Sequence record: OR769032.1
Direction: 5' to 3' (one strand)
Source: Escherichia phage JoYop
Length of the DNA stretch: 64,000 bases
The translations under genes and the position numbers were made by a program. Under the pieces are notes generated by a model, which did not search any database, had not been told where the DNA came from, and worked only from the letters and a program-made list of their open reading frames with translations. Each line of letters begins with the position of its first letter. The first letter of the stretch is position 1. This document shows positions 29,915 to 63,438 of this stretch, one piece after another.

Positions 29915-30178
29915 CTATTTCTCTAACTTGACGATTTTACGAAAGTATCTTTTGCATTGACGAATCTGTCGCTTAGTAGGGCGCACAGCAAACTTAATAA
30001 ATTCCACTCGACCGAATGGAGGGTTTTCTTCTGATGGAATATCTAACACCAATTCCCACGTATCTGCGATAAGTGCTTTGAATTGAGTATTTTTCCTAAC
30101 GTTATACGGAGTAGGCTTAAATAAAACTATATGCATATTATCCTCGGCAATCCACTTCACACACTTTCTTGTCATCAA
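29915..30178 (-). CDS. hypothetical basic protein (87 aa)
   Basis: Track ORF; overlaps dmd-like ORF by 41 nt, true start may be internal. Confidence 0.45.
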   Translation of the reverse strand: MMTRKCVKWIAEDNMHIVLFKPTPYNVRKNTQFKALIADTWELVLDIPSEENPPFGRVEFIKFAVRPTKRQIRQCKRYFRKIVKLEK

Positions 30179-30320
30179 TGAAAGCTTTAACTAGCGCTTT
30201 ATTAACTTCAGCATATTGAGTAGTAGCCCATTGAACATCATCTTTCATCATTGTGATTTCTTTAGTAAACATGCTTTCATTCTTAAACCACCCCATAAAA
30301 ACTACCTTTACCAATTCCAT
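30138..30320 (-). CDS. dmd: Dmd-like protein (60 aa), antitoxin against RnlA-type toxins
   Basis: 60 aa and immediately next to gene 41 as T4 dmd; own early promoter; assignment by position/size. Confidence 0.55.
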   Translation of the reverse strand: MELVKVVFMGWFKNESMFTKEITMMKDDVQWATTQYAEVNKALVKAFIDDKKVCEVDCRG

Positions 30321-30349
30321 AACAATCTCCTCATTTAACCAACAAGACT

Positions 30350-30379
30350 ACTATACCATAGTCTTGTCAGCTTGTAAAC
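30350..30379 (-). promoter_or_regulatory. early promoter upstream of dmd-like gene
   Basis: Coding strand GTTTACAAGCTGACAAGACTATGGTATAGT; -35 overlaps gene 41 stop. Confidence 0.5.
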
Positions 30380-31806
30380 TAAAATTTTAATTCATTCGCC
30401 AAAGCATCTAACTGAGCTCGAGTCGATTCATTTCTTTGATAGCGATTCTGCTCAGCCTGAATCTGCTGCGAACCTGCCACTTCATTCACTTCGGTTGGAG
30501 TAGAATCTTGTTCAATTTCTACCCATTTTTGATTTCCTTTTTGAACACCCATTAAAAACTTATTCCATTTATTCTTATCACCATATCGTGATTTGATTTG
30601 CTTAATGAGTTGCTGTTCAGCAGCTGCTAACTCCTCGGTTTCAATGACCGCAAGCATAAAATCGGCTGTCGCTGGAAGACCAGCAGATTCTGCGATATCA
30701 CTCATGTTAACATCAGAAGAGTCCCAAGCTTGCTTACCAACCTGTGCTGCAGTCCAAAGAACAGTTTCGGTTTCAACAGCCAGAGCACGTAATTCCTCTG
30801 CAATAGCTTTAACAGTTGTGTAACTATTTTCTGAATAAACTCGGATGCGACACGATTTACAAATACCCAAATAGTCGACAATAATGATTGTTGGAACAAA
30901 ATTCTTCTTGAGCTTCAATTCGTTTAAAAGTGATCGAAATGTATTAGCGTCTGCTCCACCAGTAGGATACTGTTTAACGATTAAACGACCGAGAGTAGAT
31001 TTCTCACGCCATTTTTCCATTTTTCCTTTATACTCAGCGTAAGAAATATGCCCATCATCAATGTCATCAAGAGAAACATCAAGCATATTAGCATCAATAC
31101 GCTTAGCACAGACTTCTTCAGCCATTTCCATGGAAATGTAAAGAACATTATGTCCAAGCTGTAAATAATCCGCTGCTAGTGAACACAATCCTAATGACTT
31201 ACCAACGTTAACGCCAGCCATTAAAACATTTAGTGTTCCAGTCTCAGCTCCGCCTTTAGTAATTTTGTTCAGAATTTTTAGTTTAAATGGAACCTTACGA
31301 GCTTTATTCATATAAGATAGCCAACGTGCTTCATAGTCATCCATCCAATCATGACCAACGTAACTATCAAATGAAATAGATAATGCTTGCCGCATGATGT
31401 CAGGAATGGCACCTACATCTGGCATTTTCTTATTTCGTTTTTCCGGAGGAAGCTCAGCATTAGTTTGAATTTCAATTATTTTAGATGTGGCGTTAAACAT
31501 CGCCCTTTGCTGAACATATTTTTCTGTTTCTTTTACTAACCAGCTGTGGTCTTCCGGAGAATCAGCTAGTTTTGAAATAAGTGTTTTTACACCAGAATAT
31601 TCTGTTTCAGTAAATGAACTATTTTCTAATGCAACATTTAACGCATTAATAGATGGAACGCTATGGTACTCATCGACATGAGATTTAATTAATTTGAATG
31701 TATTTTTAGCTGGACCACTTTCAAAATATTCTGAATCCATATATGGCCAAACTTTTGAAAAATAAGCTTGATCAAATATGAGATGAGAAAGAATAATTTC
31801 TACCAC
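30379..31806 (-). CDS. 41: replicative DNA helicase gp41 (DnaB family)
   Basis: 475 aa; Walker A GVNVGKS; same size as T4 gp41. Confidence 0.9.
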   Translation of the reverse strand: MVEIILSHLIFDQAYFSKVWPYMDSEYFESGPAKNTFKLIKSHVDEYHSVPSINALNVALENSSFTETEYSGVKTLISKLADSPEDHSWLVKETEKYVQQRAMFNATSKIIEIQTNAELPPEKRNKKMPDVGAIPDIMRQALSISFDSYVGHDWMDDYEARWLSYMNKARKVPFKLKILNKITKGGAETGTLNVLMAGVNVGKSLGLCSLAADYLQLGHNVLYISMEMAEEVCAKRIDANMLDVSLDDIDDGHISYAEYKGKMEKWREKSTLGRLIVKQYPTGGADANTFRSLLNELKLKKNFVPTIIIVDYLGICKSCRIRVYSENSYTTVKAIAEELRALAVETETVLWTAAQVGKQAWDSSDVNMSDIAESAGLPATADFMLAVIETEELAAAEQQLIKQIKSRYGDKNKWNKFLMGVQKGNQKWVEIEQDSTPTEVNEVAGSQQIQAEQNRYQRNESTRAQLDALANELKF

Positions 31807-31815
31807 ACTTACTCC

Positions 31816-32160
31816 TTAAAAGAATTTAAATTTTTTCTTTGACCTTTTATTAAATGCATCTTGTAGTTGCATTGTAATACATTTTTCTACATGAGGAGCT
31901 AACTCAGCTTTTCTTTCTTGGTCAAGAACAGCAAAGTCCATTACAACCTTTCCATCAACCCAATCTAATTTTGTCACATACACAATGTGTGTAGAACCGT
32001 CTTCTAGTTTAATGACAATCTCCTGGATAACATTTTCCATAGCGGATTTAATTATCTTAAGAGATTCATTAAAAAGACGTTCTTTTCTTTCTTCTTCCCC
32101 CTCCGAAGAGGGGGATTCATCGATAATTTCTAGATCTAAATCTAAATCATCTTTATTCAT
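31816..32160 (-). CDS. 40: head vertex assembly chaperone gp40
   Basis: Track ORF trimmed to the ATG 3 nt after the uvsX stop (MNKDDLDL..., 114 aa, the T4 gp40 length). Confidence 0.7.
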   Translation of the reverse strand: MNKDDLDLDLEIIDESPSSEGEEERKERLFNESLKIIKSAMENVIQEIVIKLEDGSTHIVYVTKLDWVDGKVVMDFAVLDQERKAELAPHVEKCITMQLQDAFNKRSKKKFKFF

Positions 32161-33334
32161 TAAATTCTTCCATATCACTTAACTGATCTAGGTCAGTTTC
32201 TAAATCAGCTGCTGATTTACTTTTACTTTCTGGAAATTTAAATTTTTCAACCTTTGAGTTAATTAATTCATCAACTTCAGCTTCAACAATTTCATTACTA
32301 TCAATAGCACCTAACTGATAAGCACGTTTAATAGCATCTCGGAATGGTTGATGCTTAAATAAAGGACCCCAGAATGTAGTACAGTTGGTATCTTTTGCAC
32401 GCCAAGATTTTTCTTCGCGAATCATCTCGCCGGTTTCTTCATCAAGAAATTCACGAGCATACCAACCATTTTTAGGTTTTACTACAAATCCTAATTCTAG
32501 AGCCATATCTAACAATCCAGAATAAGGATCGATACCACCGTCAAATTTAACATCAATAAAGAATTTACTTTTTTCTTTAACGGTACGAGATTTTTCTACA
32601 TTTAGAACAAATTGATACCCCTGAAGATCAGAACCATCTTTAATCTGGCGCTTACCGATAATGAATACGGTATCAGCCGAATACATTACGCCTGTACCAC
32701 CTGTCATCACGGTTTTACTAAACATTTCAATTGTTTCAATTGTATGGTTAACCGCAACACATGGAATATTTTTAATGCTAAAATAAGGAGTAACAATACG
32801 GAATAATGACTTCAGCGATTTAGCACGAGTCATATCTGCCACAGATTTTTCATTCAAGGCATCTTCCGTTTCTTTCTTAGAAGCCATATTACCGATTGAG
32901 TCGATGAAAACAATAACCTTTTCACCACGCTCAATAGCTTCAAGCTGATTCACCATATCAATTTTCAGTTGTTCAACTGACTGAATTGGTGTATGAATTA
33001 CTCGTTCCGGGTCAACACCCATGGATCGCAAATAAGCTGGAGTAATACCAAATTCGCTATCATAAAATAGACAAACCGCGTCAGGATATTTGTTCAAATA
33101 CGCCGCAACCATAGTCAAAGACATATTTGATTTAAAGTGTTTAGAAGGACCTGCAAAAATAGTTAAACCAGACTGCATACCACCATCAATCGCACCAGAA
33201 ATAGCGATATTAAGCATTGGGATTTTTGTGCGAATTACATCCTTTTCATTAAAGAATTTAGATGTAGTCAGTTCAGCAGTCATTTTAGAAGTGGAAGCTT
33301 TAATCAAACGGGATTTTAAATCTGCAATAGACAT
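32153..33334 (-). CDS. uvsX: UvsX recombinase (RecA/Rad51 family)
   Basis: 393 aa; Walker A GPSKHFKS; near-identical to recalled T4 UvsX. Confidence 0.9.
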   Translation of the reverse strand: MSIADLKSRLIKASTSKMTAELTTSKFFNEKDVIRTKIPMLNIAISGAIDGGMQSGLTIFAGPSKHFKSNMSLTMVAAYLNKYPDAVCLFYDSEFGITPAYLRSMGVDPERVIHTPIQSVEQLKIDMVNQLEAIERGEKVIVFIDSIGNMASKKETEDALNEKSVADMTRAKSLKSLFRIVTPYFSIKNIPCVAVNHTIETIEMFSKTVMTGGTGVMYSADTVFIIGKRQIKDGSDLQGYQFVLNVEKSRTVKEKSKFFIDVKFDGGIDPYSGLLDMALELGFVVKPKNGWYAREFLDEETGEMIREEKSWRAKDTNCTTFWGPLFKHQPFRDAIKRAYQLGAIDSNEIVEAEVDELINSKVEKFKFPESKSKSAADLETDLDQLSDMEEFNE

Positions 33335-33411
33335 TCATTTTTTCCATAGGCATCATTATATTTTCCTCACTGGTTAAAGATAAAGTAATTATAACACAAT
33401 AAATTTAGGCA

Positions 33412-34260
33412 TTAATCAACTGCTATTGGATGAATAGCATTAAACTTATGAAATGCTTCTGATTTTTCTTTACGCGAAACACACATGCGAAGAACCTTTA
33501 ATGGCTCGTCTTCTTCACCCAACGATTTTCGCTTTTCAATATTAGATGTTTTCCAACGAGCTTGCTCTGGAAACTCTTTATTAATTTGCTCAAGCGCTCT
33601 ATTATGTTTAGAATTACTACGAATTGAACTACACCCACCCGGAGCCTGTGCTTTTCCAGATACAACCAGATATTTGAACAAGGCCAAATGCGGATAACCT
33701 TGATTAATTAAATTGAGAAATGCATACATATCTTCGCATAAATCAATTTTTCCATACCCAATTTGTTCTGTCGTAAGTTTTCCGAGGTCATACCATGTAT
33801 TCGTGAATCCATATGAATTTTCACGATAATTACCCCAAGATGAAGTAATTTTAAAAATTGGTAGACGAGCATGGCCATGATAATACCCACAATCCATAGC
33901 ATCTTCAACGTATTGAATTAATTCGTAGAATTGTTCACGGGTTAATTGATTGACTTTATCTACACAACGACGATCGTCTCTTTTTCGCATTGAGCTCATA
34001 CGAATCGTAGTATCATCGTCAATCATCCAGATTCGTTGACCTGCATACATATCAGTAATTGCTTTACGAGTACCAGCAATTCCATTTACATCATCAGGAA
34101 TGGTTATAATTTTAGCTCTAGACCCGTAAGCGTCATAATAAGCTTTTTCTTCATGTTCACGTACTACGATATGAGGTTCATAATCAGTCGGAAACATATC
34201 AAGGGCAGAAACTGCCCCTACGCGTTGATAGCTTGGAATTACAAATTGAATCATTTCCAC
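33412..34260 (-). CDS. candidate DNA glucosyltransferase (GT-A fold, DxD motif); occupies the T4 beta-gt position but is 282 aa
   Basis: Motif RIWMIDDDTT; located between uvsX and gene 42; size consistent with the beta-glucosyl-HMC alpha-glucosyltransferase of T2/T6 as I recall it. Confidence 0.5.
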   Translation of the reverse strand: MEMIQFVIPSYQRVGAVSALDMFPTDYEPHIVVREHEEKAYYDAYGSRAKIITIPDDVNGIAGTRKAITDMYAGQRIWMIDDDTTIRMSSMRKRDDRRCVDKVNQLTREQFYELIQYVEDAMDCGYYHGHARLPIFKITSSWGNYRENSYGFTNTWYDLGKLTTEQIGYGKIDLCEDMYAFLNLINQGYPHLALFKYLVVSGKAQAPGGCSSIRSNSKHNRALEQINKEFPEQARWKTSNIEKRKSLGEEDEPLKVLRMCVSRKEKSEAFHKFNAIHPIAVD

Positions 34261-34991
34261 TCACCGTTATAATCTTTTTTCATAATATGAGTTTCGCCAG
34301 TATTCCACCAATGATCAACCAAGTAAAAATGACGGGAATATACATGAAGACTTCCAACATTCCATATAATAGAACCTGCTTTATACTGACGAGTTGAATC
34401 GCCTGCATTCAAATCAGATACTAATTTATCTAGTACGTATTTTTGCCATGCATAGTCATTACGGAATCCGAAGACCACGTCATTTGAGCGCATGCTAACA
34501 ACTGCATTGATTTTCTTGTCACGAATCAAGTATTGTACTGTATTCGTGCACATGAAATCTGACATACCATCTTTATTGTAGTCAAATTGCATGGATGGAC
34601 GAGTATAAATCATGATACCACGTCGAGAATCAGGATTTTGACCAAGTTCAGCTAAGCACATATCATACTGGGCATAGTTATCTTCTGACCAGATAGCCCA
34701 ACCATAATTCGAGTTAATTTCGCCTTTAGAAGATGCTACCTGTTGCCAAATCTTTGGTGTTTCACCTGGAATATCTTTAACAAACAGGCTTTGAGACTTG
34801 TACCATTCAAGTTCACGCTGAATGTATTCATCATTAAGAGCACCAAAAATAAAGGGTTCATCTGCTACAAATGATGCGCCAATAATTTCAATAGTTTTAA
34901 CACCAGTTTTATCAATTACGAAATCTTTTTCCTTTAATGCAGTTCCCAAATAAAGACGGATTTCTTCAACTGTCATAGAGTCATTAATCAT
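34251..34991 (-). CDS. 42: dCMP hydroxymethylase gp42
   Basis: 246 aa, thymidylate-synthase-like; same size and position as T4 gp42. Confidence 0.85.
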   Translation of the reverse strand: MINDSMTVEEIRLYLGTALKEKDFVIDKTGVKTIEIIGASFVADEPFIFGALNDEYIQRELEWYKSQSLFVKDIPGETPKIWQQVASSKGEINSNYGWAIWSEDNYAQYDMCLAELGQNPDSRRGIMIYTRPSMQFDYNKDGMSDFMCTNTVQYLIRDKKINAVVSMRSNDVVFGFRNDYAWQKYVLDKLVSDLNAGDSTRQYKAGSIIWNVGSLHVYSRHFYLVDHWWNTGETHIMKKDYNGEWK

Positions 34992-35144
34992 TTAAACCTC
35001 AATTGATGCATTCATATTTAAATTGTAACAGTAATAAACCCCACCCTATGATAAGAGTTGGAATCATAACAGGAACTGTTACGCTATAGTATATACTTAT
35101 TATAACCATCAAGATTAAAAGCAACACTGCTATAATTTTGCTTT

Positions 35145-35396
35145 TCATTCTTTCTCTCTGATGATAATTACTTGATTTGGCTGTGCAGACTTTTTGGTTT
35201 CACCCGCAATTGACCAAATAAATGTAATAAACCAACCGATAATTGACCAGTTAAACAGTAAAGACGTGAAAAAGATTCCTACTGTCGATTTTGACCCACG
35301 CATCAAGGCAATGAACCATGGAAGCATGTATATAATAATAGCCAACACGCCTGAAACTAAAACCATAAAAATTGAACCTGCTACTAAAGTTTCCAT
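35145..35396 (-). CDS. imm: Imm superinfection immunity membrane protein
   Basis: 83 aa, two TM segments, METLVAGSIFMVLVSGVLAIIIYMLPWFIALMRG... matches recalled T4 Imm. Confidence 0.85.
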   Translation of the reverse strand: METLVAGSIFMVLVSGVLAIIIYMLPWFIALMRGSKSTVGIFFTSLLFNWSIIGWFITFIWSIAGETKKSAQPNQVIIIREKE

Positions 35397-35403
35397 ATTT
35401 TCC

Positions 35404-35784
35404 TCACTTAGTCAAATTTTTTACACATGAATTATAAGAATTCACCACATACTCCATCGGAGCATTTTTACCTGTACGCCATTGGTAATTATTAGCCCAA
35501 TTTGCCCAAAGTTCAGCGCAATAATTTTCAATTTTTTCTTCGTGTGTAATTACATCTGAATTACGATATGCTTGAGCAGATTCATCTGGGCGAATAGCTT
35601 CGTCAAAATTCGCCTGCATTTGTTCTACTGTCTGCTTTGGAGCTTCTTTATAACACTTGACATTAGGATTATAAAATTTGCTTGAGCAGTTTACAATTTT
35701 TCCTACATCAGATTGATTTACTACCGGTCCTTGAGCTACACAACCAGTAAGACCCAATGCAATAACCAAAATAGCGATTTTCAT
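35404..35784 (-). CDS. putative lipoprotein (126 aa)
   Basis: Signal peptide with lipobox LTGC (MKIAILVIALGLTGCVAQ). Confidence 0.55.
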   Translation of the reverse strand: MKIAILVIALGLTGCVAQGPVVNQSDVGKIVNCSSKFYNPNVKCYKEAPKQTVEQMQANFDEAIRPDESAQAYRNSDVITHEEKIENYCAELWANWANNYQWRTGKNAPMEYVVNSYNSCVKNLTK

Positions 35785-35794
35785 AACAATTTCC

Positions 35795-36031
35795 TCAAAT
35801 GCAAGTAGTAATTACACCTGTAGTGCTCACACATGTATTCCCTAATTGAACACCTAAAGATCCGTTAGTATTCATATGAAGATTATCACCAATTTTAGTT
35901 GATACTTTCCCATTCATATGAATAATAACACTAGATTCAATAGGAGTCTGAATATCATTTTCAACATCAATAAATGGAATTGTTGCTAATGCAACTAAAC
36001 AAACTGCTAAGCAACCATAAACAATTTTCAT
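35795..36031 (-). CDS. small secreted protein (78 aa)
   Basis: Track ORF trimmed to the ATG after leader GGAGAACAAA (MKIVYGCLAVCLVALATIPF...); signal-peptide-like N-terminus. Confidence 0.5.
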   Translation of the reverse strand: MKIVYGCLAVCLVALATIPFIDVENDIQTPIESSVIIHMNGKVSTKIGDNLHMNTNGSLGVQLGNTCVSTTGVITTCI

Positions 36032-36095
36032 TTTGTTCTCCAAATCCGTATCAGTTGATAGTTGTATAGTACCATGGAAGAACAGTGATGTAAAC
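36032..36095 (-). promoter_or_regulatory. early promoter plus leader cassette (type A)
   Basis: Coding strand GTTTACATCACTGTTCTTCCATGGTACTATACAACTATCAACTGATACGGATTTGGAGAACAAA-ATG. Confidence 0.6.
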
Positions 36096-36183
36096 AGTTT
36101 TGTGAAAAAATTTTCAATGAATTCTAAAGACCCAGAATCATCTGTTTTTCACAAGTATAGATTTATATTACTTGTATGAAAAA

Positions 36184-36199
36184 GGGACCCGGAGGTCCC
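36184..36199 (-). terminator. terminator hairpin after gene 43 (GGGACC-UCCG-GGUCCC)
   Basis: Perfect 6-bp GC stem downstream of the gp43 stop. Confidence 0.5.
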
Positions 36200-36212
36200 T
36201 AGATTTATTCTA

Positions 36213-38909
36213 TCAGCCAAACAGGAAGTCTAACGAAGCTTTTTCTTCATAGTCCATACCTGCCGATTCACACATACCTGCAAGTGGTTTAACAAACGAT
36301 TTTTGGAACAAAGTTGAGTAGTCAATCCAAGATAGTACGTCAGAACGAATTTCCTTTGGAAGTTCTGTTCCCGATGGCCAAGCAATACACTTATCACCAA
36401 ATGGGTTTCCTTCACGTAATGGAAGAACCATTACTTTATTTCCATCCAAAATTGGAGCTACACCTAAACCGCTAACAGCTCGACGATAAGTTAGCACACC
36501 ACGAATATGGAACGGGCATTTAAATCCTGGCCAACCTTTATCATCGTATTTCGCTATATCGTTCGCAGTTTTTACTTCAGCAATAACTTTATAGTCAAGT
36601 TGACGATATTCTTTCTCAAAGTTCTTGTAATATTCTTGGACAGACTCTTCACCTTCCTGAAGAATACGACGAATACTTTCTTCGAGAGCTTCTTGTACTG
36701 CTTTTGGTGTTGAACTCTGTTGAGTTTCCATACCCATGATTTTTAGATGCGGTTCAGCAAATCGCTTATCTTCCATATCATAAACGTTCAGAGCATAACG
36801 CTTTTTCGCTTTCCAAAAACCACCGACACCCTTTGAACCAAGTGGAGGACAAGAAATAGCTTCACGGTCCATATGCATCAGATGCTCGCGGTTATTCATA
36901 TAATCACATAACTCACGATATGCAACATCAATCATAGGTTCCATCTTTTTCTTACCGAACTGATTCATGAATTCAACTAAATCATTTTGTTCTTTAAAGC
37001 GGTCAAGACCTACTTTTTCAATAACTTTATCTACGCAAACATATACCGAATCAGTGTCACCAGCTGCGATGAAGTCTTCACCATTAGTTCCACACACTTT
37101 ATTCAGATACTCATTAATTTTACGAGCAATCCACTGAATACCAACTTGGCCGAAAATTGTGATAGCAGTAGCATTTCGCAAATCATAGTAACGGAAATGA
37201 ATATTACCAAGAGCACCATAAAGACTGTTAATAAGAATTTTACGGTTCAGCTGATTTGTATTAGCAAGTGTAGCAGCTTTTTCACATTCTTCAATCAAAC
37301 TATTGAGAACAGATTCAGTATAATTCGATAGTTCATTTAAGAAATCATCACTGAACTTAACATATCGTTCAACTTCCGGTTTAGTTGAACAAGTCCCTGC
37401 GCCTTTCATAATAATTTTTTTAATAGCTTCGGCATTCATTTCTTCTGCGAACATTTTCTTTTTCCAGTCTTTACGTTGGAAAAATACTTTAGCGATTTCC
37501 TTTGGAATGATACCTTCTTGGTGCTTATCATACATCCATCCATTCGGAGAGCAAGAATATTCATCACTTGGCTTAGGAGCTGTTCCTGCGATATATTCAT
37601 GAATTGGATGAACTTTAAACTGACCACGAATAGTCTCAGGACTAATGTTAACCTGACGAATAATGCTCGGATACAGAGAAGTTAAGTCAAAACTCATAAT
37701 ATACCGACGAGCAATCGGTTTAGGTTCAAACACAAATGCACCCGGAAAACTCTGCTTAACGTGTGAACCTTGCTGAGGAATAACCTTATGTTCACCTTTC
37801 AGTGAGTTAAAAATAATAGCATCCCAAGTTTTAATAGGACTCATTACGCCAGAAAAAGGCATTTTAGCGTAATAAGACATACTTAAAACCAGATCGATAA
37901 ACCCACGAATTTTATCGATTGCTTGAACTGATTCTACGTCAATGATGTTATAACTAATGTATCGTTGATGATTAGTCTCACGAAGTTTATTAATAGGACC
38001 ATCGTACGGTAATTTACCTTTTTTGGTTTCATGTTGAGCAACTGATTCCAAAGAGAATGACGGCAAATTAGTAAACGCGAATTTCTTATACAAATCTAAA
38101 TAATCAAGAATAGATACGCCATCAATAGAATAAATTTCTTTGCTACCGTACATGTTTTGAATTAGTTTAGATTTTACTCGACCGATTGGGGAGAAGCGTT
38201 TCATACTGCGTTCACCAAGAACCATTTTAACACGATTCATGATATACGGAACGTCAAATCCCTCAATATTCCAACCAGTAAAAATAGCAGGTCGTTTCTG
38301 TTCCCAGAGATTAATATATTCCATGAGCATATCACGCTCATTATCAAATGGCATATAAATTACTCGGTCAAGAATTTCTTGAGGAACTTCATCACCACCT
38401 TCACAGTCAAGCTTAGCAGCTAATTTTGCATCCCATTTTGATACTGAGCCATACATTGAATTCAACAAATCAAAGACGTAAAAACGGTCGTCAATTGAAT
38501 CATAATGAGTGATAGCATCAATTTCATATTCTGCTTTCATTGGGTCAGGAAATTTATCACCAGTAACCTCAATGTCACAGTTAGCTACACGAACAAATTT
38601 TCGGTCATAAACAATTTCCGAACCGTATGTATCACTGATATAAGCGAGTTTAAAATCGTTCATACCGAGAGCTTCGAGACCGATGTCTTCCATTCGCTTC
38701 ATCCAGTCTCGTGCATCTTTCATTGATGGAAATTTTTGAGGAGCGCAGTTTTTACCATAGATGTCTTTGTATTTTGACTCTTCCTTACAATGCCTAAACA
38801 TAGTCGGAAGATATTCTACTTCACGAGTACGTTCCTTTCCATTTTCATCAATATAACGCTCAACAATGTTATTTCCGACTGTTTCGATAGAGATATAAAA
38901 TTCTTTCAT
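36213..38909 (-). CDS. 43: DNA polymerase gp43 (family B)
   Basis: 898 aa, same size as T4 gp43; exonuclease and polymerase motifs (YGDTDS). Confidence 0.95.
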   Translation of the reverse strand: MKEFYISIETVGNNIVERYIDENGKERTREVEYLPTMFRHCKEESKYKDIYGKNCAPQKFPSMKDARDWMKRMEDIGLEALGMNDFKLAYISDTYGSEIVYDRKFVRVANCDIEVTGDKFPDPMKAEYEIDAITHYDSIDDRFYVFDLLNSMYGSVSKWDAKLAAKLDCEGGDEVPQEILDRVIYMPFDNERDMLMEYINLWEQKRPAIFTGWNIEGFDVPYIMNRVKMVLGERSMKRFSPIGRVKSKLIQNMYGSKEIYSIDGVSILDYLDLYKKFAFTNLPSFSLESVAQHETKKGKLPYDGPINKLRETNHQRYISYNIIDVESVQAIDKIRGFIDLVLSMSYYAKMPFSGVMSPIKTWDAIIFNSLKGEHKVIPQQGSHVKQSFPGAFVFEPKPIARRYIMSFDLTSLYPSIIRQVNISPETIRGQFKVHPIHEYIAGTAPKPSDEYSCSPNGWMYDKHQEGIIPKEIAKVFFQRKDWKKKMFAEEMNAEAIKKIIMKGAGTCSTKPEVERYVKFSDDFLNELSNYTESVLNSLIEECEKAATLANTNQLNRKILINSLYGALGNIHFRYYDLRNATAITIFGQVGIQWIARKINEYLNKVCGTNGEDFIAAGDTDSVYVCVDKVIEKVGLDRFKEQNDLVEFMNQFGKKKMEPMIDVAYRELCDYMNNREHLMHMDREAISCPPLGSKGVGGFWKAKKRYALNVYDMEDKRFAEPHLKIMGMETQQSSTPKAVQEALEESIRRILQEGEESVQEYYKNFEKEYRQLDYKVIAEVKTANDIAKYDDKGWPGFKCPFHIRGVLTYRRAVSGLGVAPILDGNKVMVLPLREGNPFGDKCIAWPSGTELPKEIRSDVLSWIDYSTLFQKSFVKPLAGMCESAGMDYEEKASLDFLFG

Positions 38910-45846: not shown

Positions 45847-45864
45847 TAAAGGGCCGAAGCCCTT
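45847..45864 (-). terminator. terminator hairpin after alpha-gt (AAAGGGC-UUCG-GCCCUUU)
   Basis: Perfect stem with tetraloop overlapping the alpha-gt stop. Confidence 0.5.
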
Positions 45865-47066
45865 TATTTTGTAATAATGTCAAACTGTTCTTTAAAACAG
45901 AAGCTTGAATCTTGGTGCTGATACAAAAATTCATAAGCTTTTTCACGTTCACGATCATAAAGAGCTCGGTCAGATGACAGTTCTTTAATTCGTTCAAATG
46001 TTGATTCCATGTCATTTTCATCAAACCAAACGATACCGCTATCATGCGAAATTAACGGAGTATTATCAACACGGAATTTTAAATTTTCGCCAGTAGATTT
46101 CCAAAATACCGGAATTGTTCCGCACGCACCAAGCTCGAGATGAGTATATTCTAAAGAACGTTGTAGATATTTTTTGTCCAACTTACTCAGCTGATAACCA
46201 AATCCGGATTTACTCATGCGTTCAAGCATTTCGCTATTTACATAACGGTCAAGAATTTGCGTTGGCAAATTAGGAGCAATTTTAATTTGGTCTACTTGAT
46301 GAAGACGATAATACTCGTATGGAATTCCTTTTTCTTTAATAGGAATGAATGCCGGAGAACGTTCCAGACCTTCCATAATAGTACTTAGTCCTGCAGGTTT
46401 AAGATGTTTTTCGTGAAAATCAAACATCTGATAAAAACCTTTCCACGTAGTTGTACGACCAATCCAACGGTTGATATTCATGTTAATTTCAGAAACATCT
46501 TTCCAGTAAGTTGATCGAACCTTCGCAATATCCATAGGAGGCTGAAAGTTATATACGGTCGGTGCTTCTTCAATATCATCAAACAAAGAAACTGTTTCTG
46601 GATACCATTCTTTCATCAAAACTTTATTAAAGTCACCATTATCAGAATGACTAAAAATAACATCAGCTCGACGAACAGTTTCTTCTAATCCCAAATTTCG
46701 GCGTAAAGAAAGAGAAGAATGGTCATGTTGATAAACTACAACACGAACAGAAGGTTTAATGTTATCAATAATTTTTTTATAGTTATTAATTGTGTCTTCT
46801 TCAACTGAAGTAGCAGGAACTGAATTGATAACTAGAATATCACAATCATTTACCAGCTTAAGTGTTTTATCGTATTCTTTTGCCAATAAAACTGGAATTG
46901 AAAATGACTTATAATCATGCGCGCAATTACGAGTAAATGATTTATCTTTAGCATAAACCAAAGTTACTTCATGACCATTTTTAATAAACCAATCACGCTG
47001 CTCAAGAGAAAATTTAGTTACGCCACAACCTTCAAGACCTCGAGCCATAAAAATGCATACTTTCAT
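45864..47066 (-). CDS. agt: DNA alpha-glucosyltransferase
   Basis: 400 aa, same size and position (between gene 47 and gene 55 region) as T4 alpha-gt. Confidence 0.8.
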   Translation of the reverse strand: MKVCIFMARGLEGCGVTKFSLEQRDWFIKNGHEVTLVYAKDKSFTRNCAHDYKSFSIPVLLAKEYDKTLKLVNDCDILVINSVPATSVEEDTINNYKKIIDNIKPSVRVVVYQHDHSSLSLRRNLGLEETVRRADVIFSHSDNGDFNKVLMKEWYPETVSLFDDIEEAPTVYNFQPPMDIAKVRSTYWKDVSEINMNINRWIGRTTTWKGFYQMFDFHEKHLKPAGLSTIMEGLERSPAFIPIKEKGIPYEYYRLHQVDQIKIAPNLPTQILDRYVNSEMLERMSKSGFGYQLSKLDKKYLQRSLEYTHLELGACGTIPVFWKSTGENLKFRVDNTPLISHDSGIVWFDENDMESTFERIKELSSDRALYDREREKAYEFLYQHQDSSFCFKEQFDIITK

Positions 47067-61689: not shown

Positions 61690-62409
61690 TTACGATTCTT
61701 CTAAATGTCTTTTCTGAAAAGTTGATACCATACTACGATATGGTTCATTTGGATACCCGTGTTTTATAGCTTCCTTTGTAAATTTTCTCCATCCATATTT
61801 GGTTTCTTTCCAAAGCTCGAATAATTCATCTTCATATTGCCATATAGTTAAATGAGAACGCTTTGCAGCTTTAATTCCATTAATGTGCTTTTCTTTTACT
61901 GTAGGATTGCTTAGTGTCTTTTTAATAATATTACTAACTTTTCTAACAAAAGCTGGGTCCTTATATCGTTGTGAAGTTTTTATTGAAGTGTTTAATTTAG
62001 CTTCCGGCGTGGATGTGACCTCTTTCATCTTTTTCTTCATATGCTGTATATGATTAGGATTTTTCCATAAATTTATAGAATGCTTTTTACATTTTATCCT
62101 AGTTTCATCTGCAACCTTTCCTCCTTCACCCCCATATGACAGGTTAACACAGTTTTTTCCATATTTCAATTTACCTGCCATGATATATAATATTTCAGCT
62201 TGTACCATTTTATCATAATTATCAAAAACTTCTAAAACCGTTTTTGATAATATGTGGTCATTTGACACTTTTACACGTTCTATATAATTTCCACTACCAA
62301 CATATGAATCATTGATGTTATTAGTTATATGTCGACCATAATAGTATTTCTTAATACCTGTCTTTAAATTTAATATTTCAGTTTTATAGATAGTAAAATA
62401 TTTTTTCAT
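61690..62409 (-). CDS. GIY-YIG-like nuclease domain protein (239 aa); possible Seg-type endonuclease
   Basis: N-terminal TIYKTEILNLKTGIKKYYYGRH...YVGSG resembles GIY-(10-11)-YIG; basic C-terminal half with repeated K/S/N motifs; start overlaps ATPase stop (ATGA). Confidence 0.4.
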   Translation of the reverse strand: MKKYFTIYKTEILNLKTGIKKYYYGRHITNNINDSYVGSGNYIERVKVSNDHILSKTVLEVFDNYDKMVQAEILYIMAGKLKYGKNCVNLSYGGEGGKVADETRIKCKKHSINLWKNPNHIQHMKKKMKEVTSTPEAKLNTSIKTSQRYKDPAFVRKVSNIIKKTLSNPTVKEKHINGIKAAKRSHLTIWQYEDELFELWKETKYGWRKFTKEAIKHGYPNEPYRSMVSTFQKRHLEES

Positions 62410-63374
62410 TTTAATAATACCGTTTCAGCAATTTCTTCCCAATGGTTTTTGTCGGTCATAATAAAGTCAGCAAGATAAAGAGCAGTACGCAGTGAAACAT
62501 TGCGTAAACGATTAACATTAACTTTCATCCATGATAATGCTTTATAAGTTTCTTCATCAGAAAGACCACGTTTTTGCATCATGTCAGTTGAAAGAATAAC
62601 ATCTTCAACCCTGACCATAATTTCTTCATTAGTGTGAACACCTAAATCTAAATAAACTGAGCGGGACACTAATGCTTGTAAATGTGGAGCAAGTTTAGTT
62701 CCACGGTCTAATTCACGGTCAATGTCAACGTTTGTGATAAAAACAATCGTTCCTTTAAATTCAAACTCACGCTCAATGCCTTTTTCTTCTAAGTAAGAAG
62801 ATGCAGTGCTCCAGCAGACTTTACGGGTCTCTCCAGTGTCCAGAGCAGCTTTTAGAAGATTAAGAATGTCCATATCAGAGAAAACATCCACATCATCAAT
62901 TAAAAGGACAGAATTCTCTTCACGATTATTCCAGAGCTGCTCATAAAGACCGATACCAGAGATTTTACCATTAATGCTTTTATATTCAATGTATCCAACA
63001 TCATTTGCTTTATTTAAAGCTTTATCTAAAGAATACGTTTTACCAATACCTGCCGCACCAGAGATAATTAATGAACGAATGTTTCCGTTAATAATACCAT
63101 TCGTCATCATTCCCATAACATTAAATCTTTTATTAATGCGGGTTTTCATATCTTCATATGATTCTTTAACTTCTTCAACTTTTACACCATCATATGAAAT
63201 ATCTGATTTGTAAACCCAAACACCGCGACGCTTACCGTCAATTTCAACAAAAACTTTACCATCTCCTTGTGCATCTACCGGAGCATTATCTGGGAACCAT
63301 TCACCTAAGAGCTCAAAAGTTCCAGAGATTTCTTTACCGAAGTAGATACCCTTATTGATAGTTACAGTTTTCAT
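62406..63374 (-). CDS. P-loop NTPase (AAA+-like), 322 aa
   Basis: Track ORF trimmed to the ATG after leader GGAGAACAAA; Walker A GAAGIGKT, Walker B VLLIDDVD. Confidence 0.6.
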   Translation of the reverse strand: MKTVTINKGIYFGKEISGTFELLGEWFPDNAPVDAQGDGKVFVEIDGKRRGVWVYKSDISYDGVKVEEVKESYEDMKTRINKRFNVMGMMTNGIINGNIRSLIISGAAGIGKTYSLDKALNKANDVGYIEYKSINGKISGIGLYEQLWNNREENSVLLIDDVDVFSDMDILNLLKAALDTGETRKVCWSTASSYLEEKGIEREFEFKGTIVFITNVDIDRELDRGTKLAPHLQALVSRSVYLDLGVHTNEEIMVRVEDVILSTDMMQKRGLSDEETYKALSWMKVNVNRLRNVSLRTALYLADFIMTDKNHWEEIAETVLLK

Positions 63375-63438
63375 TTTGTTCTCCAAATCCGTATCAGTTG
63401 ATAGTTGTATAGTACCATAAAGCTTTATGCTTGTAAAC
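63375..63438 (-). promoter_or_regulatory. early promoter plus leader cassette (type A)
   Basis: Coding strand GTTTACAAGCATAAAGCTTTATGGTACTATACAACTATCAACTGATACGGATTTGGAGAACAAA-ATG. Confidence 0.6.

What the first reader, a model, noticed from the sequence alone, without database searches (positions are those of the whole stretch)
33412..34260. A 282-aa DxD glycosyltransferase sits where T4 has beta-gt
Between uvsX and gene 42 there is a single 282-aa ORF with a GT-A type DxD motif (WMIDDD) rather than a ~350-aa beta-glucosyltransferase, while alpha-gt (400 aa) is present at 45864..47066. This pairing fits the T2/T6 hydroxymethylcytosine glucosylation pattern as I recall it and would change sensitivity to modification-dependent restriction. 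No segA-like gene is present in this interval.
Basis: partly seen in the sequence, partly recalled or inferred. Interest (0 to 1): 0.4.

Follow-up and report, generated by a model that had tools for sequence, protein, structure and literature searches.

The report
T2/T6-type second DNA glucosyltransferase gene
This gene is the well-known T2/T6-type enzyme that adds a second glucose to already glucosylated phage DNA; it is the usual arrangement in T4-like coliphages, and T4 itself is the exception, so the finding is correct but ordinary.

Summary
A single ORF on the minus strand at 33412..34260 lies between uvsX (32153..33334) and gene 42 (34251..34991). It carries WMIDDD, there is no segA, and a 400-aa alpha-gt sits at 45864..47066. 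The likely start is the ATG at 34254, which gives 280 aa and an ATGA overlap with the gene 42 stop.

The protein is 277/280 identical to T2 beta-glucosyl-HMC-alpha-glucosyltransferase and 279/280 identical to the phage Solly protein. It hits PHROG 842 (E=1e-89) and Pfam TAGT PF20691 above the curated cut-off. It shows no similarity to T4 beta-gt, and the window holds no beta-gt homologue.

The gene occurs at this position in 490 phage records. T4 beta-gt occurs in 29.

Published work already covers the function. Deleting ba-gt in T6 removes gentiobiosyl-hmC and raises sensitivity to Brig1. Nucleoside analysis of Solly DNA shows about two-thirds gentiobiosyl-hmC and no beta-glucosyl-hmC. The GT-A fold of the T6 enzyme has also been reported.

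Verdict: already known, low interest. One side note: all three T2 records read carry R11H at a residue that is invariant in the family, whereas the window keeps Arg.

The parts
33412..34254 (-). ba-gt (also called g-gt or TAGT): beta-glucosyl-HMC-alpha-glucosyltransferase CDS, 280 aa plus stop, from the ATG. The mechanical ORF extends to a GTG at 34260.
   Evidence: ORF list. 277/280 identical to T2 BBC14657.1. 279/280 identical to Solly CAJ1578263.1. PHROG 842 E=1.4e-89. Pfam PF20691 38.9 bits against a cut-off of 27.5.
34012..34020 (-). Codons for D79-D80-D81, the DxD-type motif after strand beta4 (IWMI). Inferred site of divalent metal and UDP-glucose diphosphate binding.
   Evidence: Sequence. 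In a 145-sequence family alignment D79 is 143/145, D80 145/145 and D81 137/145. Strand E74-77 precedes the motif in the model.
34222..34224 (-). Codon for Arg11 in the N-terminal IPSYQR motif. Invariant in the family, and replaced by His in phage T2.
   Evidence: R in 140 of 140 ungapped sequences. H in three T2 records. CGC in the window against CAT in T2.
34251..34991 (-). Gene 42, dCMP hydroxymethylase, which makes the hmC precursor. Its TGA stop overlaps the ba-gt ATG.
   Evidence: Pfam Thymidylat_synt 58.5 bits. Annotated as gp42 in syntenic T2/T6 records. Overlap read directly.
33335..33411 (-). 77-nt intergenic spacer between ba-gt and uvsX. No segA.
   Evidence: Coordinates. Sequence. 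T4 has segA plus a 164-nt gap here.
32153..33334 (-). uvsX recombinase, the downstream neighbour.
   Evidence: Pfam T4_UVSX_C 132.8 bits and RecA 44 bits.
45864..47066 (-). alpha-gt, the DNA alpha-glucosyltransferase. It makes alpha-glucosyl-hmC, the acceptor for ba-gt.
   Evidence: Pfam AGT PF11440 782.7 bits. 91% identical to T6 alpha-gt. Present in 503 phage records.

Best explanation
The ORF encodes the T2/T6-type beta-alpha-glucosyltransferase, a 280-aa GT-A-fold enzyme of the TAGT family.

The pathway runs as follows. gp42 makes hydroxymethyl-dCMP, and hmC is incorporated into phage DNA. Alpha-gt (45864..47066) puts an alpha-linked glucose on roughly three quarters of the hmC residues. 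This enzyme then transfers a second glucose from UDP-glucose onto the first, in beta-1,6 linkage, giving gentiobiosyl-hmC.

The DDD motif would hold the divalent metal and the UDP-sugar diphosphate. An inverting GT2-like mechanism fits the alpha-donor to beta-product chemistry.

The phage has no T4-type beta-gt. Its DNA should therefore contain hmC, alpha-glucosyl-hmC and gentiobiosyl-hmC, but no beta-glucosyl-hmC.

What is shown here: sequence identity, family membership, synteny, conserved motifs, fold similarity, and absence of beta-gt. What is shown by others on near-identical proteins: the product and its dependence on the gene. What is inferred: the roles of the DxD motif and of Arg11, and the actual modification ratio in this phage.
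For: - Identity: 277/280 to T2, 279/280 to Solly, and about 98% to T6.
- Family: PHROG 842 'beta-glucosyl-HMC-alpha-glucosyltransferase' E=1.4e-89. Pfam TAGT above the gathering score.
- Distribution: 490 phage records carry the gene at 90-97% nucleotide identity, 489 of them over at least 80% of the gene. In all 40 listed it lies next to gene 42 (dCMP hydroxymethylase, in some records named thymidylate synthase or hypothetical protein), and many name it beta-alpha-glucosyltransferase. The 42 / ba-gt / uvsX order is the same in T2 and T6.
- Conservation: the family has 349 representative clusters with invariant R11, DDD, D175, GG206-207 and R212. All are intact here.
- Pathway partners: alpha-gt and gene 42 are present.
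- Literature: T6 delta-ba-gt carries only alpha-glucosyl-hmC and is more sensitive to Brig1 (PMC11078745). Solly, TB37 and Some DNA measured by HPLC/MS is about 1/3 5-hmdC and 2/3 alpha-gentiobiosyl-mdC, with no beta-glucosyl form, and TAGT is syntenic with T4 beta-GT (PMC13390438). The T6 TAGT modelled with AF3 is GT-A, a sister group to GT2, and alpha-GT plus TAGT is the common pairing (PMC13216743).
Against: - Nothing in the sequence contradicts the explanation.
- The structure model is of moderate confidence only (mean pLDDT 69.8; residues 126-151 and 203-211 are below 50), having been built from 10 sequences.
- No solved structure of any family member exists by sequence search.
- No biochemistry was done on this particular phage.
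- The ratio of mono- to di-glucosylated hmC varies among phages with nearly identical enzymes: T2 5%, the Durham group EL/BGP/Geo about 40%, Solly and T6 about 70%. The extent of modification therefore cannot be read from the sequence.
Confidence: 0.95

Rival explanations
1. It is a diverged or truncated T4-type beta-glucosyltransferase that puts a single beta-glucose directly on hmC.
For: Only positional: it occupies the slot between gene 42 and uvsX where T4 has b-gt. Some database records label the orthologue 'putative beta-glucosyltransferase'.
Against: BLASTP against T4 beta-gt gives only chance fragments (best E=2.2). tblastn of T4 beta-gt against the whole window gives a best E of 0.94. 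The model matches GT-A enzymes, whereas T4 beta-gt is GT-B (PMC13216743). Phages with the near-identical protein lack beta-glucosyl-hmC (PMC13390438).
Confidence: 0.01
2. It is a TAGT-family transferase with a different acceptor or donor from the T6 enzyme, for example acting on bare hmC or using another sugar.
For: The TAGT family is broad: 349 clusters. Many members occur with beta-GT or with no other GT, which implies varied specificities (PMC13216743).
Against: This protein is 279/280 identical to the Solly enzyme and about 98% identical to the T6 enzyme. The DNA of both phages is gentiobiosylated, and in T6 this depends on the gene. The single difference from Solly (K226R) lies at a variable column.
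Confidence: 0.03
3. The gene is present but functionally weak or inactive, so the DNA is T2-like (mostly alpha-monoglucosyl) or lacks gentiobiose.
For: T2 has a 99% identical gene yet only about 5% gentiobiosyl-hmC. Lab T6 records show lesions in this gene, which suggests it is dispensable in culture.
Against: The ORF is full length. All family-invariant residues are intact, including Arg11, which T2 has lost. It is identical, apart from one variable position, to the enzyme of a phage with about 2/3 gentiobiosyl-hmC.
Confidence: 0.1

Closest known systems
Phage T2/T6 beta-glucosyl-HMC-alpha-glucosyltransferase (ba-gt, g-gt, ggt; PHROG 842; Pfam PF20691 TAGT)
   Same: Same length (280 aa). 99% (T2) and about 98% (T6) identity. 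Same position between gene 42 and uvsX. Same partner alpha-gt. Same DDD motif.
   Different: Three substitutions relative to T2 (H11R, R226K, S251P). The window keeps the family-invariant Arg11 that T2 lacks. It has neither of the lesions seen in the two T6 database records.
TAGT of Durham Collection Tequatrovirus phages Solly, TB37 and Some (PMC13390438)
   Same: 279/280 identical to Solly. 96.0-96.2% nucleotide identity across the locus. Same alpha-GT plus TAGT gene set with no beta-GT.
   Different: One conservative substitution (K226 here, R in Solly). The modification ratio was measured for those phages, not for this one.
Phage T4 beta-glucosyltransferase (b-gt, 351 aa, GT-B fold, PDB 1JG7)
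   Same: It occupies the syntenic slot downstream of gene 42, uses UDP-glucose and makes a beta linkage on modified phage DNA (established knowledge).
   Different: No sequence similarity. Different fold class, GT-B against GT-A (PMC13216743). Different acceptor: hmC itself rather than alpha-glucosyl-hmC. In T4 it is accompanied by the homing endonuclease gene segA. It is found in only 29 phage records, against 490.
GT2-family inverting GT-A glycosyltransferases (e.g. BcsA, TarP/TarS, GlfT2, hyaluronan synthase)
   Different: 9-18% sequence identity only. The acceptor is a sugar on duplex DNA. No membrane or polymerising domains.

Membership tests
T2/T6 beta-glucosyl-HMC-alpha-glucosyltransferase (ba-gt; PHROG 842) | Full-length sequence orthology to the T2/T6 enzymes | tested here: met
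   277/280 identical to T2 with no gaps. About 98% to T6. PHROG 842 E=1.4e-89 over residues 2-277.
T2/T6 beta-glucosyl-HMC-alpha-glucosyltransferase (ba-gt; PHROG 842) | Genomic position between gene 42 (dCMP hydroxymethylase) and uvsX | tested here: met
   Window order is uvsX / ORF / 42 on the minus strand. T2 and T6 have the identical order.
T2/T6 beta-glucosyl-HMC-alpha-glucosyltransferase (ba-gt; PHROG 842) | Co-occurrence with alpha-gt (which supplies the alpha-glucosyl-hmC acceptor) and with hmC synthesis | tested here: met
   alpha-gt at 45864..47066, Pfam AGT 783 bits. Gene 42 at 34251..34991.
T2/T6 beta-glucosyl-HMC-alpha-glucosyltransferase (ba-gt; PHROG 842) | Catalytic activity: beta-1,6 transfer of glucose from UDP-glucose to alpha-glucosyl-hmC in DNA, giving gentiobiosyl-hmC | not testable with these tools
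   Supported only by proxy. T6 delta-ba-gt loses gentiobiosyl-hmC (PMC11078745). Solly, with a 279/280 identical enzyme, has about 2/3 gentiobiosyl-mdC (PMC13390438).
Pfam PF20691 TAGT (TET-associated glycosyltransferase), GT-A fold | Profile score above Pfam's gathering threshold | tested here: met
   38.9 bits against a cut-off of 27.5, covering profile positions 2-205 of 205.
Pfam PF20691 TAGT (TET-associated glycosyltransferase), GT-A fold | Conserved DxD-type acidic motif and other family-invariant residues intact | tested here: met
   D79/D80/D81, R11, D175, G206, G207 and R212 are all present and conserved in at least 137 of the 145 aligned sequences (R11: 140 of 140 ungapped).
Pfam PF20691 TAGT (TET-associated glycosyltransferase), GT-A fold | GT-A (nucleotide-diphospho-sugar transferase) three-dimensional fold | tested here: met
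T4 beta-glucosyltransferase (b-gt; GT-B) | Sequence similarity to T4 b-gt (351 aa) | tested here: not met
   BLASTP best E=2.2 over 8 residues. tblastn of T4 b-gt against the whole window gives a best E of 0.94.
T4 beta-glucosyltransferase (b-gt; GT-B) | GT-B two-domain fold | tested here: not met

The most novel reading that the evidence does not exclude
The classic, unexplained difference between T2 (about 5% gentiobiosyl-hmC) and T6 (about 72%) may be caused by the T2 enzyme's R11H substitution. Residue 11 is Arg in 140 of 140 ungapped sequences aligned from the family. It lies in the N-terminal IPSYQR motif, which resembles the nucleotide-binding P-x-Y-N/R motif of GT2 enzymes. The T2-specific P251S could also contribute. 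The window's enzyme keeps Arg11 and Pro251 and is 279/280 identical to that of a phage measured at about 2/3 gentiobiosyl-hmC. This phage would therefore be predicted to be T6-like, not T2-like, in its DNA sugar pattern. I found no statement of this in the papers read, but I could not read the original T2/T6 gene sequencing paper.
Probability: 0.3. Interest if true: 0.3.

Novelty: already known. Interest (0 to 1): 0.08.

Why it matters
For this window it matters only as correct annotation. The phage should carry hmC, alpha-glucosyl-hmC and gentiobiosyl-hmC, with no beta-glucosyl-hmC.

That pattern predicts how the phage behaves against sugar-specific defences. In vitro, gentiobiosyl-hmC DNA resists excision by Brig1 and deglucosylation by BapA. 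Unmodified hmC stays exposed to Brig3-type glycosylases, and GmrSD-type enzymes still cut (PMC11078745, bioRxiv 2026.02.25.707755, PMC13216743).

The result also corrects an impression created by using T4 as the reference. The alpha-gt plus ba-gt set is the norm in Tequatrovirus (490 records), and the alpha plus beta set of T4 is rare (29 records).

Tried and rejected
- The PDB sequence search with the 280-aa protein found no relative; the only hits were chance ones at E>1. No solved structure can be cited.
- NCBIfam has no model for the protein.
- The promoter/terminator scan of 33200..35300 gave counts no higher than in shuffled sequence (12 against 8.9±2.5), so nothing is claimed about regulation.
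- Two Python calls failed because loci fetched by accession were not exported to /data. I worked around this with the translate tool.
- The T4-type beta-gt hypothesis was rejected.
- To see whether His11 occurs outside T2, I scanned IMG/VR for the codon context. The result was 0 contigs with His and 3 with Arg, too few to mean much.

Full report
**Observation**

The six-frame ORF list shows one ORF on the minus strand at 33412..34260, 282 aa from a GTG. It lies between a 393-aa ORF at 32153..33334 and a 246-aa ORF at 34251..34991.
- Pfam identifies the neighbours as UvsX (T4_UVSX_C 133 bits, RecA 44 bits) and a thymidylate-synthase-family protein, that is gp42 dCMP hydroxymethylase.
- The sequence WMIDDD is present; the three Asp codons lie at 34012..34020.
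- The gap to uvsX is 77 nt, so no segA can fit. tblastn with T4 SegA finds nothing in the interval.
- The 400-aa ORF at 45864..47066 is alpha-gt (Pfam AGT 783 bits) and is 91% identical to T6 alpha-gt.

There is one correction. The GTG is probably not the start. Six bases downstream an ATG at 34254 overlaps the TGA stop of gene 42 as ATGA and is preceded by GGTGAG. The T2 and Solly records annotate 280-aa proteins from that ATG.

**What it is**

- The 280-aa protein is 277/280 identical, without gaps, to the T2 protein annotated as beta-glucosyl-HMC-alpha-glucosyl-transferase.
- It is 279/280 identical to the phage Solly protein and about 98% identical to the T6 protein.
- It matches PHROG 842, which carries the same name, at E=1.4e-89.
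- It matches Pfam PF20691, TET-associated glycosyltransferase (TAGT), at 38.9 bits against a gathering score of 27.5, over the whole 205-position profile.
- The gene is 90-97% identical at nucleotide level in 490 phage records, almost all Escherichia, Shigella, Salmonella or Yersinia Tequatrovirus. In all 40 listed records it sits next to gene 42 (dCMP hydroxymethylase, under various names).
- An 8-kb stretch around it is collinear with those phages at about 96% identity. The window therefore comes from a Tequatrovirus that is not itself in the collection at 99% or more.

**It is not T4 beta-gt**

BLASTP against the 351-aa T4 enzyme gives only chance fragments (best E=2.2). tblastn of T4 beta-gt against the whole 64-kb window gives nothing (best E=0.94).

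In T4 the same slot holds segA plus b-gt. The T4 b-gt sequence is found in only 29 phage records, against 490 for this gene. T4 is the unusual one.

**Family and fold**

A full HMMER scan of 1.84 billion representatives finds 349 clusters at E≤1e-3, most of them 250-300 aa. I aligned 145 members. The near-invariant positions are:
- R11: 140 of 140 ungapped sequences
- D79: 143/145
- D80: 145/145
- D81: 137/145
- D175: 145/145
- G206/G207: 143 and 145 of 145
- R212: 138/145

All of these are intact in the window protein.

An AlphaFold2 model from a 10-sequence alignment has moderate confidence (mean pLDDT 69.8, pTM 0.72). The N-terminal 80 residues are at pLDDT 84-95, and a beta-strand (74-77, IWMI) leads into the DDD.

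The sequence search against the PDB found no solved relative.

**Mechanism**

Shown by others on near-identical proteins:
- T2 and T6 DNA contain beta-1,6-glucosyl-alpha-glucosyl (gentiobiosyl) hmC, 5% and 72% respectively (cited in PMC13390438 and PMC6024577).
- Deleting ba-gt in T6 gives DNA with only alpha-glucosyl-hmC. It makes the DNA degradable by the glycosylase Brig1 and the phage more sensitive to it (PMC11078745).
- BapA cannot release glucose from T6 DNA but can from T6 delta-g-gt DNA (bioRxiv 10.64898/2026.02.25.707755).
- Solly, TB37 and Some, whose locus is 96.0-96.2% identical to the window, contain about 1/3 5-hmdC and 2/3 alpha-gentiobiosyl-mdC with no beta-glucosyl form. Their TAGT is noted to be syntenic with T4 beta-GT (PMC13390438).
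- An AF3 model of the T6 TAGT was classed as GT-A, sister to GT2. Alpha-GT plus TAGT was found to be the common pairing, and alpha plus beta is confined to T4 and a few relatives (PMC13216743).

Inferred here:
- The DDD binds metal and UDP-glucose.
- The N-terminal IPSYQR motif contributes to nucleotide binding, as the analogous motif does in GT2 enzymes.
- The reaction is inverting (UDP-alpha-glucose to a beta-1,6 product), as GT2 relatives would suggest.
- The ATGA overlap suggests translational coupling to gene 42.

**Comparison and novelty**

This is a member of a known, named and genetically characterised enzyme family, at the known position and with the known partner. All the sequence-level membership criteria were tested and met. 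Only the enzymatic activity itself is untestable with these tools.

The finding is therefore correct, well read, and already known. I score interest at 0.08.

**Side observations in reference phages, not in the window**

1. All three T2 records I read carry His at position 11 and Ser at 251. The window, Solly and one T6 record have Arg and Pro. Arg11 is invariant across the family. This could underlie T2's low gentiobiosyl content. It is a hypothesis only. A small IMG/VR scan found 0 His and 3 Arg contexts.
2. The two T6 records each carry a different defect in this gene. MH550421 has TAG at codon 10 and is annotated from Met20. AP018814 lacks one Asp of the DDD. These are either stock mutations or sequencing errors.
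3. Database names for this gene are inconsistent. Some ba-gt genes are labelled 'putative beta-glucosyltransferase', and the T4-type b-gt of RB55 and RB59 is labelled 'beta-glucosyl-HMC-alpha-glucosyl-transferase'.

Noticed in passing
L001:3007-3849 (T2 LC348380), L006 and L007 (T2 MH751506, PV958097); compare window 34222..34224: All three T2 records have His at residue 11 (and Ser at 251) of ba-gt. Arg11 is invariant in 140 of 140 ungapped family sequences, and the window has Arg. This may explain why T2 has only about 5% gentiobiosyl-hmC against about 72% in T6.
   Followed up: partly
L003:4923-4980 (T6 MH550421) and L005:2135-2974 (T6 AP018814): The two T6 genome records carry different lesions in ba-gt. 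One has a TAG at codon 10 and is annotated from Met20 as 261 aa. The other has an in-frame loss of one Asp from the invariant DDD motif (WMIDD-TT, 279 aa). These are either laboratory stock mutations or sequencing errors.
   Followed up: partly
window 61690..62409 (-): A 239-aa ORF is similar to T4 SegA by tblastn (25% identity over 223 aa, E=7e-10) but has no Pfam or NCBIfam hit at the thresholds used. It is probably a seg-type homing endonuclease gene at another position in the window.
   Followed up: partly
window 30000..38000 and phage collection: The best matches over 8 kb are only about 96% identical, and no record reaches 99%. The window therefore comes from a Tequatrovirus not present as such in the August 2025 phage collection.
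   Followed up: no
phage records: Annotation is inconsistent. Some ba-gt orthologues are labelled 'putative beta-glucosyltransferase' or 'hypothetical protein'. The T4-type b-gt of RB55 and RB59 is labelled 'beta-glucosyl-HMC-alpha-glucosyl-transferase'. T4 b-gt DNA occurs in 29 records, against 490 for ba-gt.
   Followed up: yes
window 62406..63386 (-): A 326-aa ORF next to the seg-like gene has only sub-threshold P-loop NTPase hits (AAA_14, AAA_22, nSTAND3; 20-23 bits, below the cut-offs). It was not identified further.
   Followed up: no
window 34251..34254: The ba-gt ATG overlaps the gene 42 TGA (ATGA), which suggests translational coupling. In T4, b-gt is separated from gene 42 by 23 nt.
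   Followed up: no
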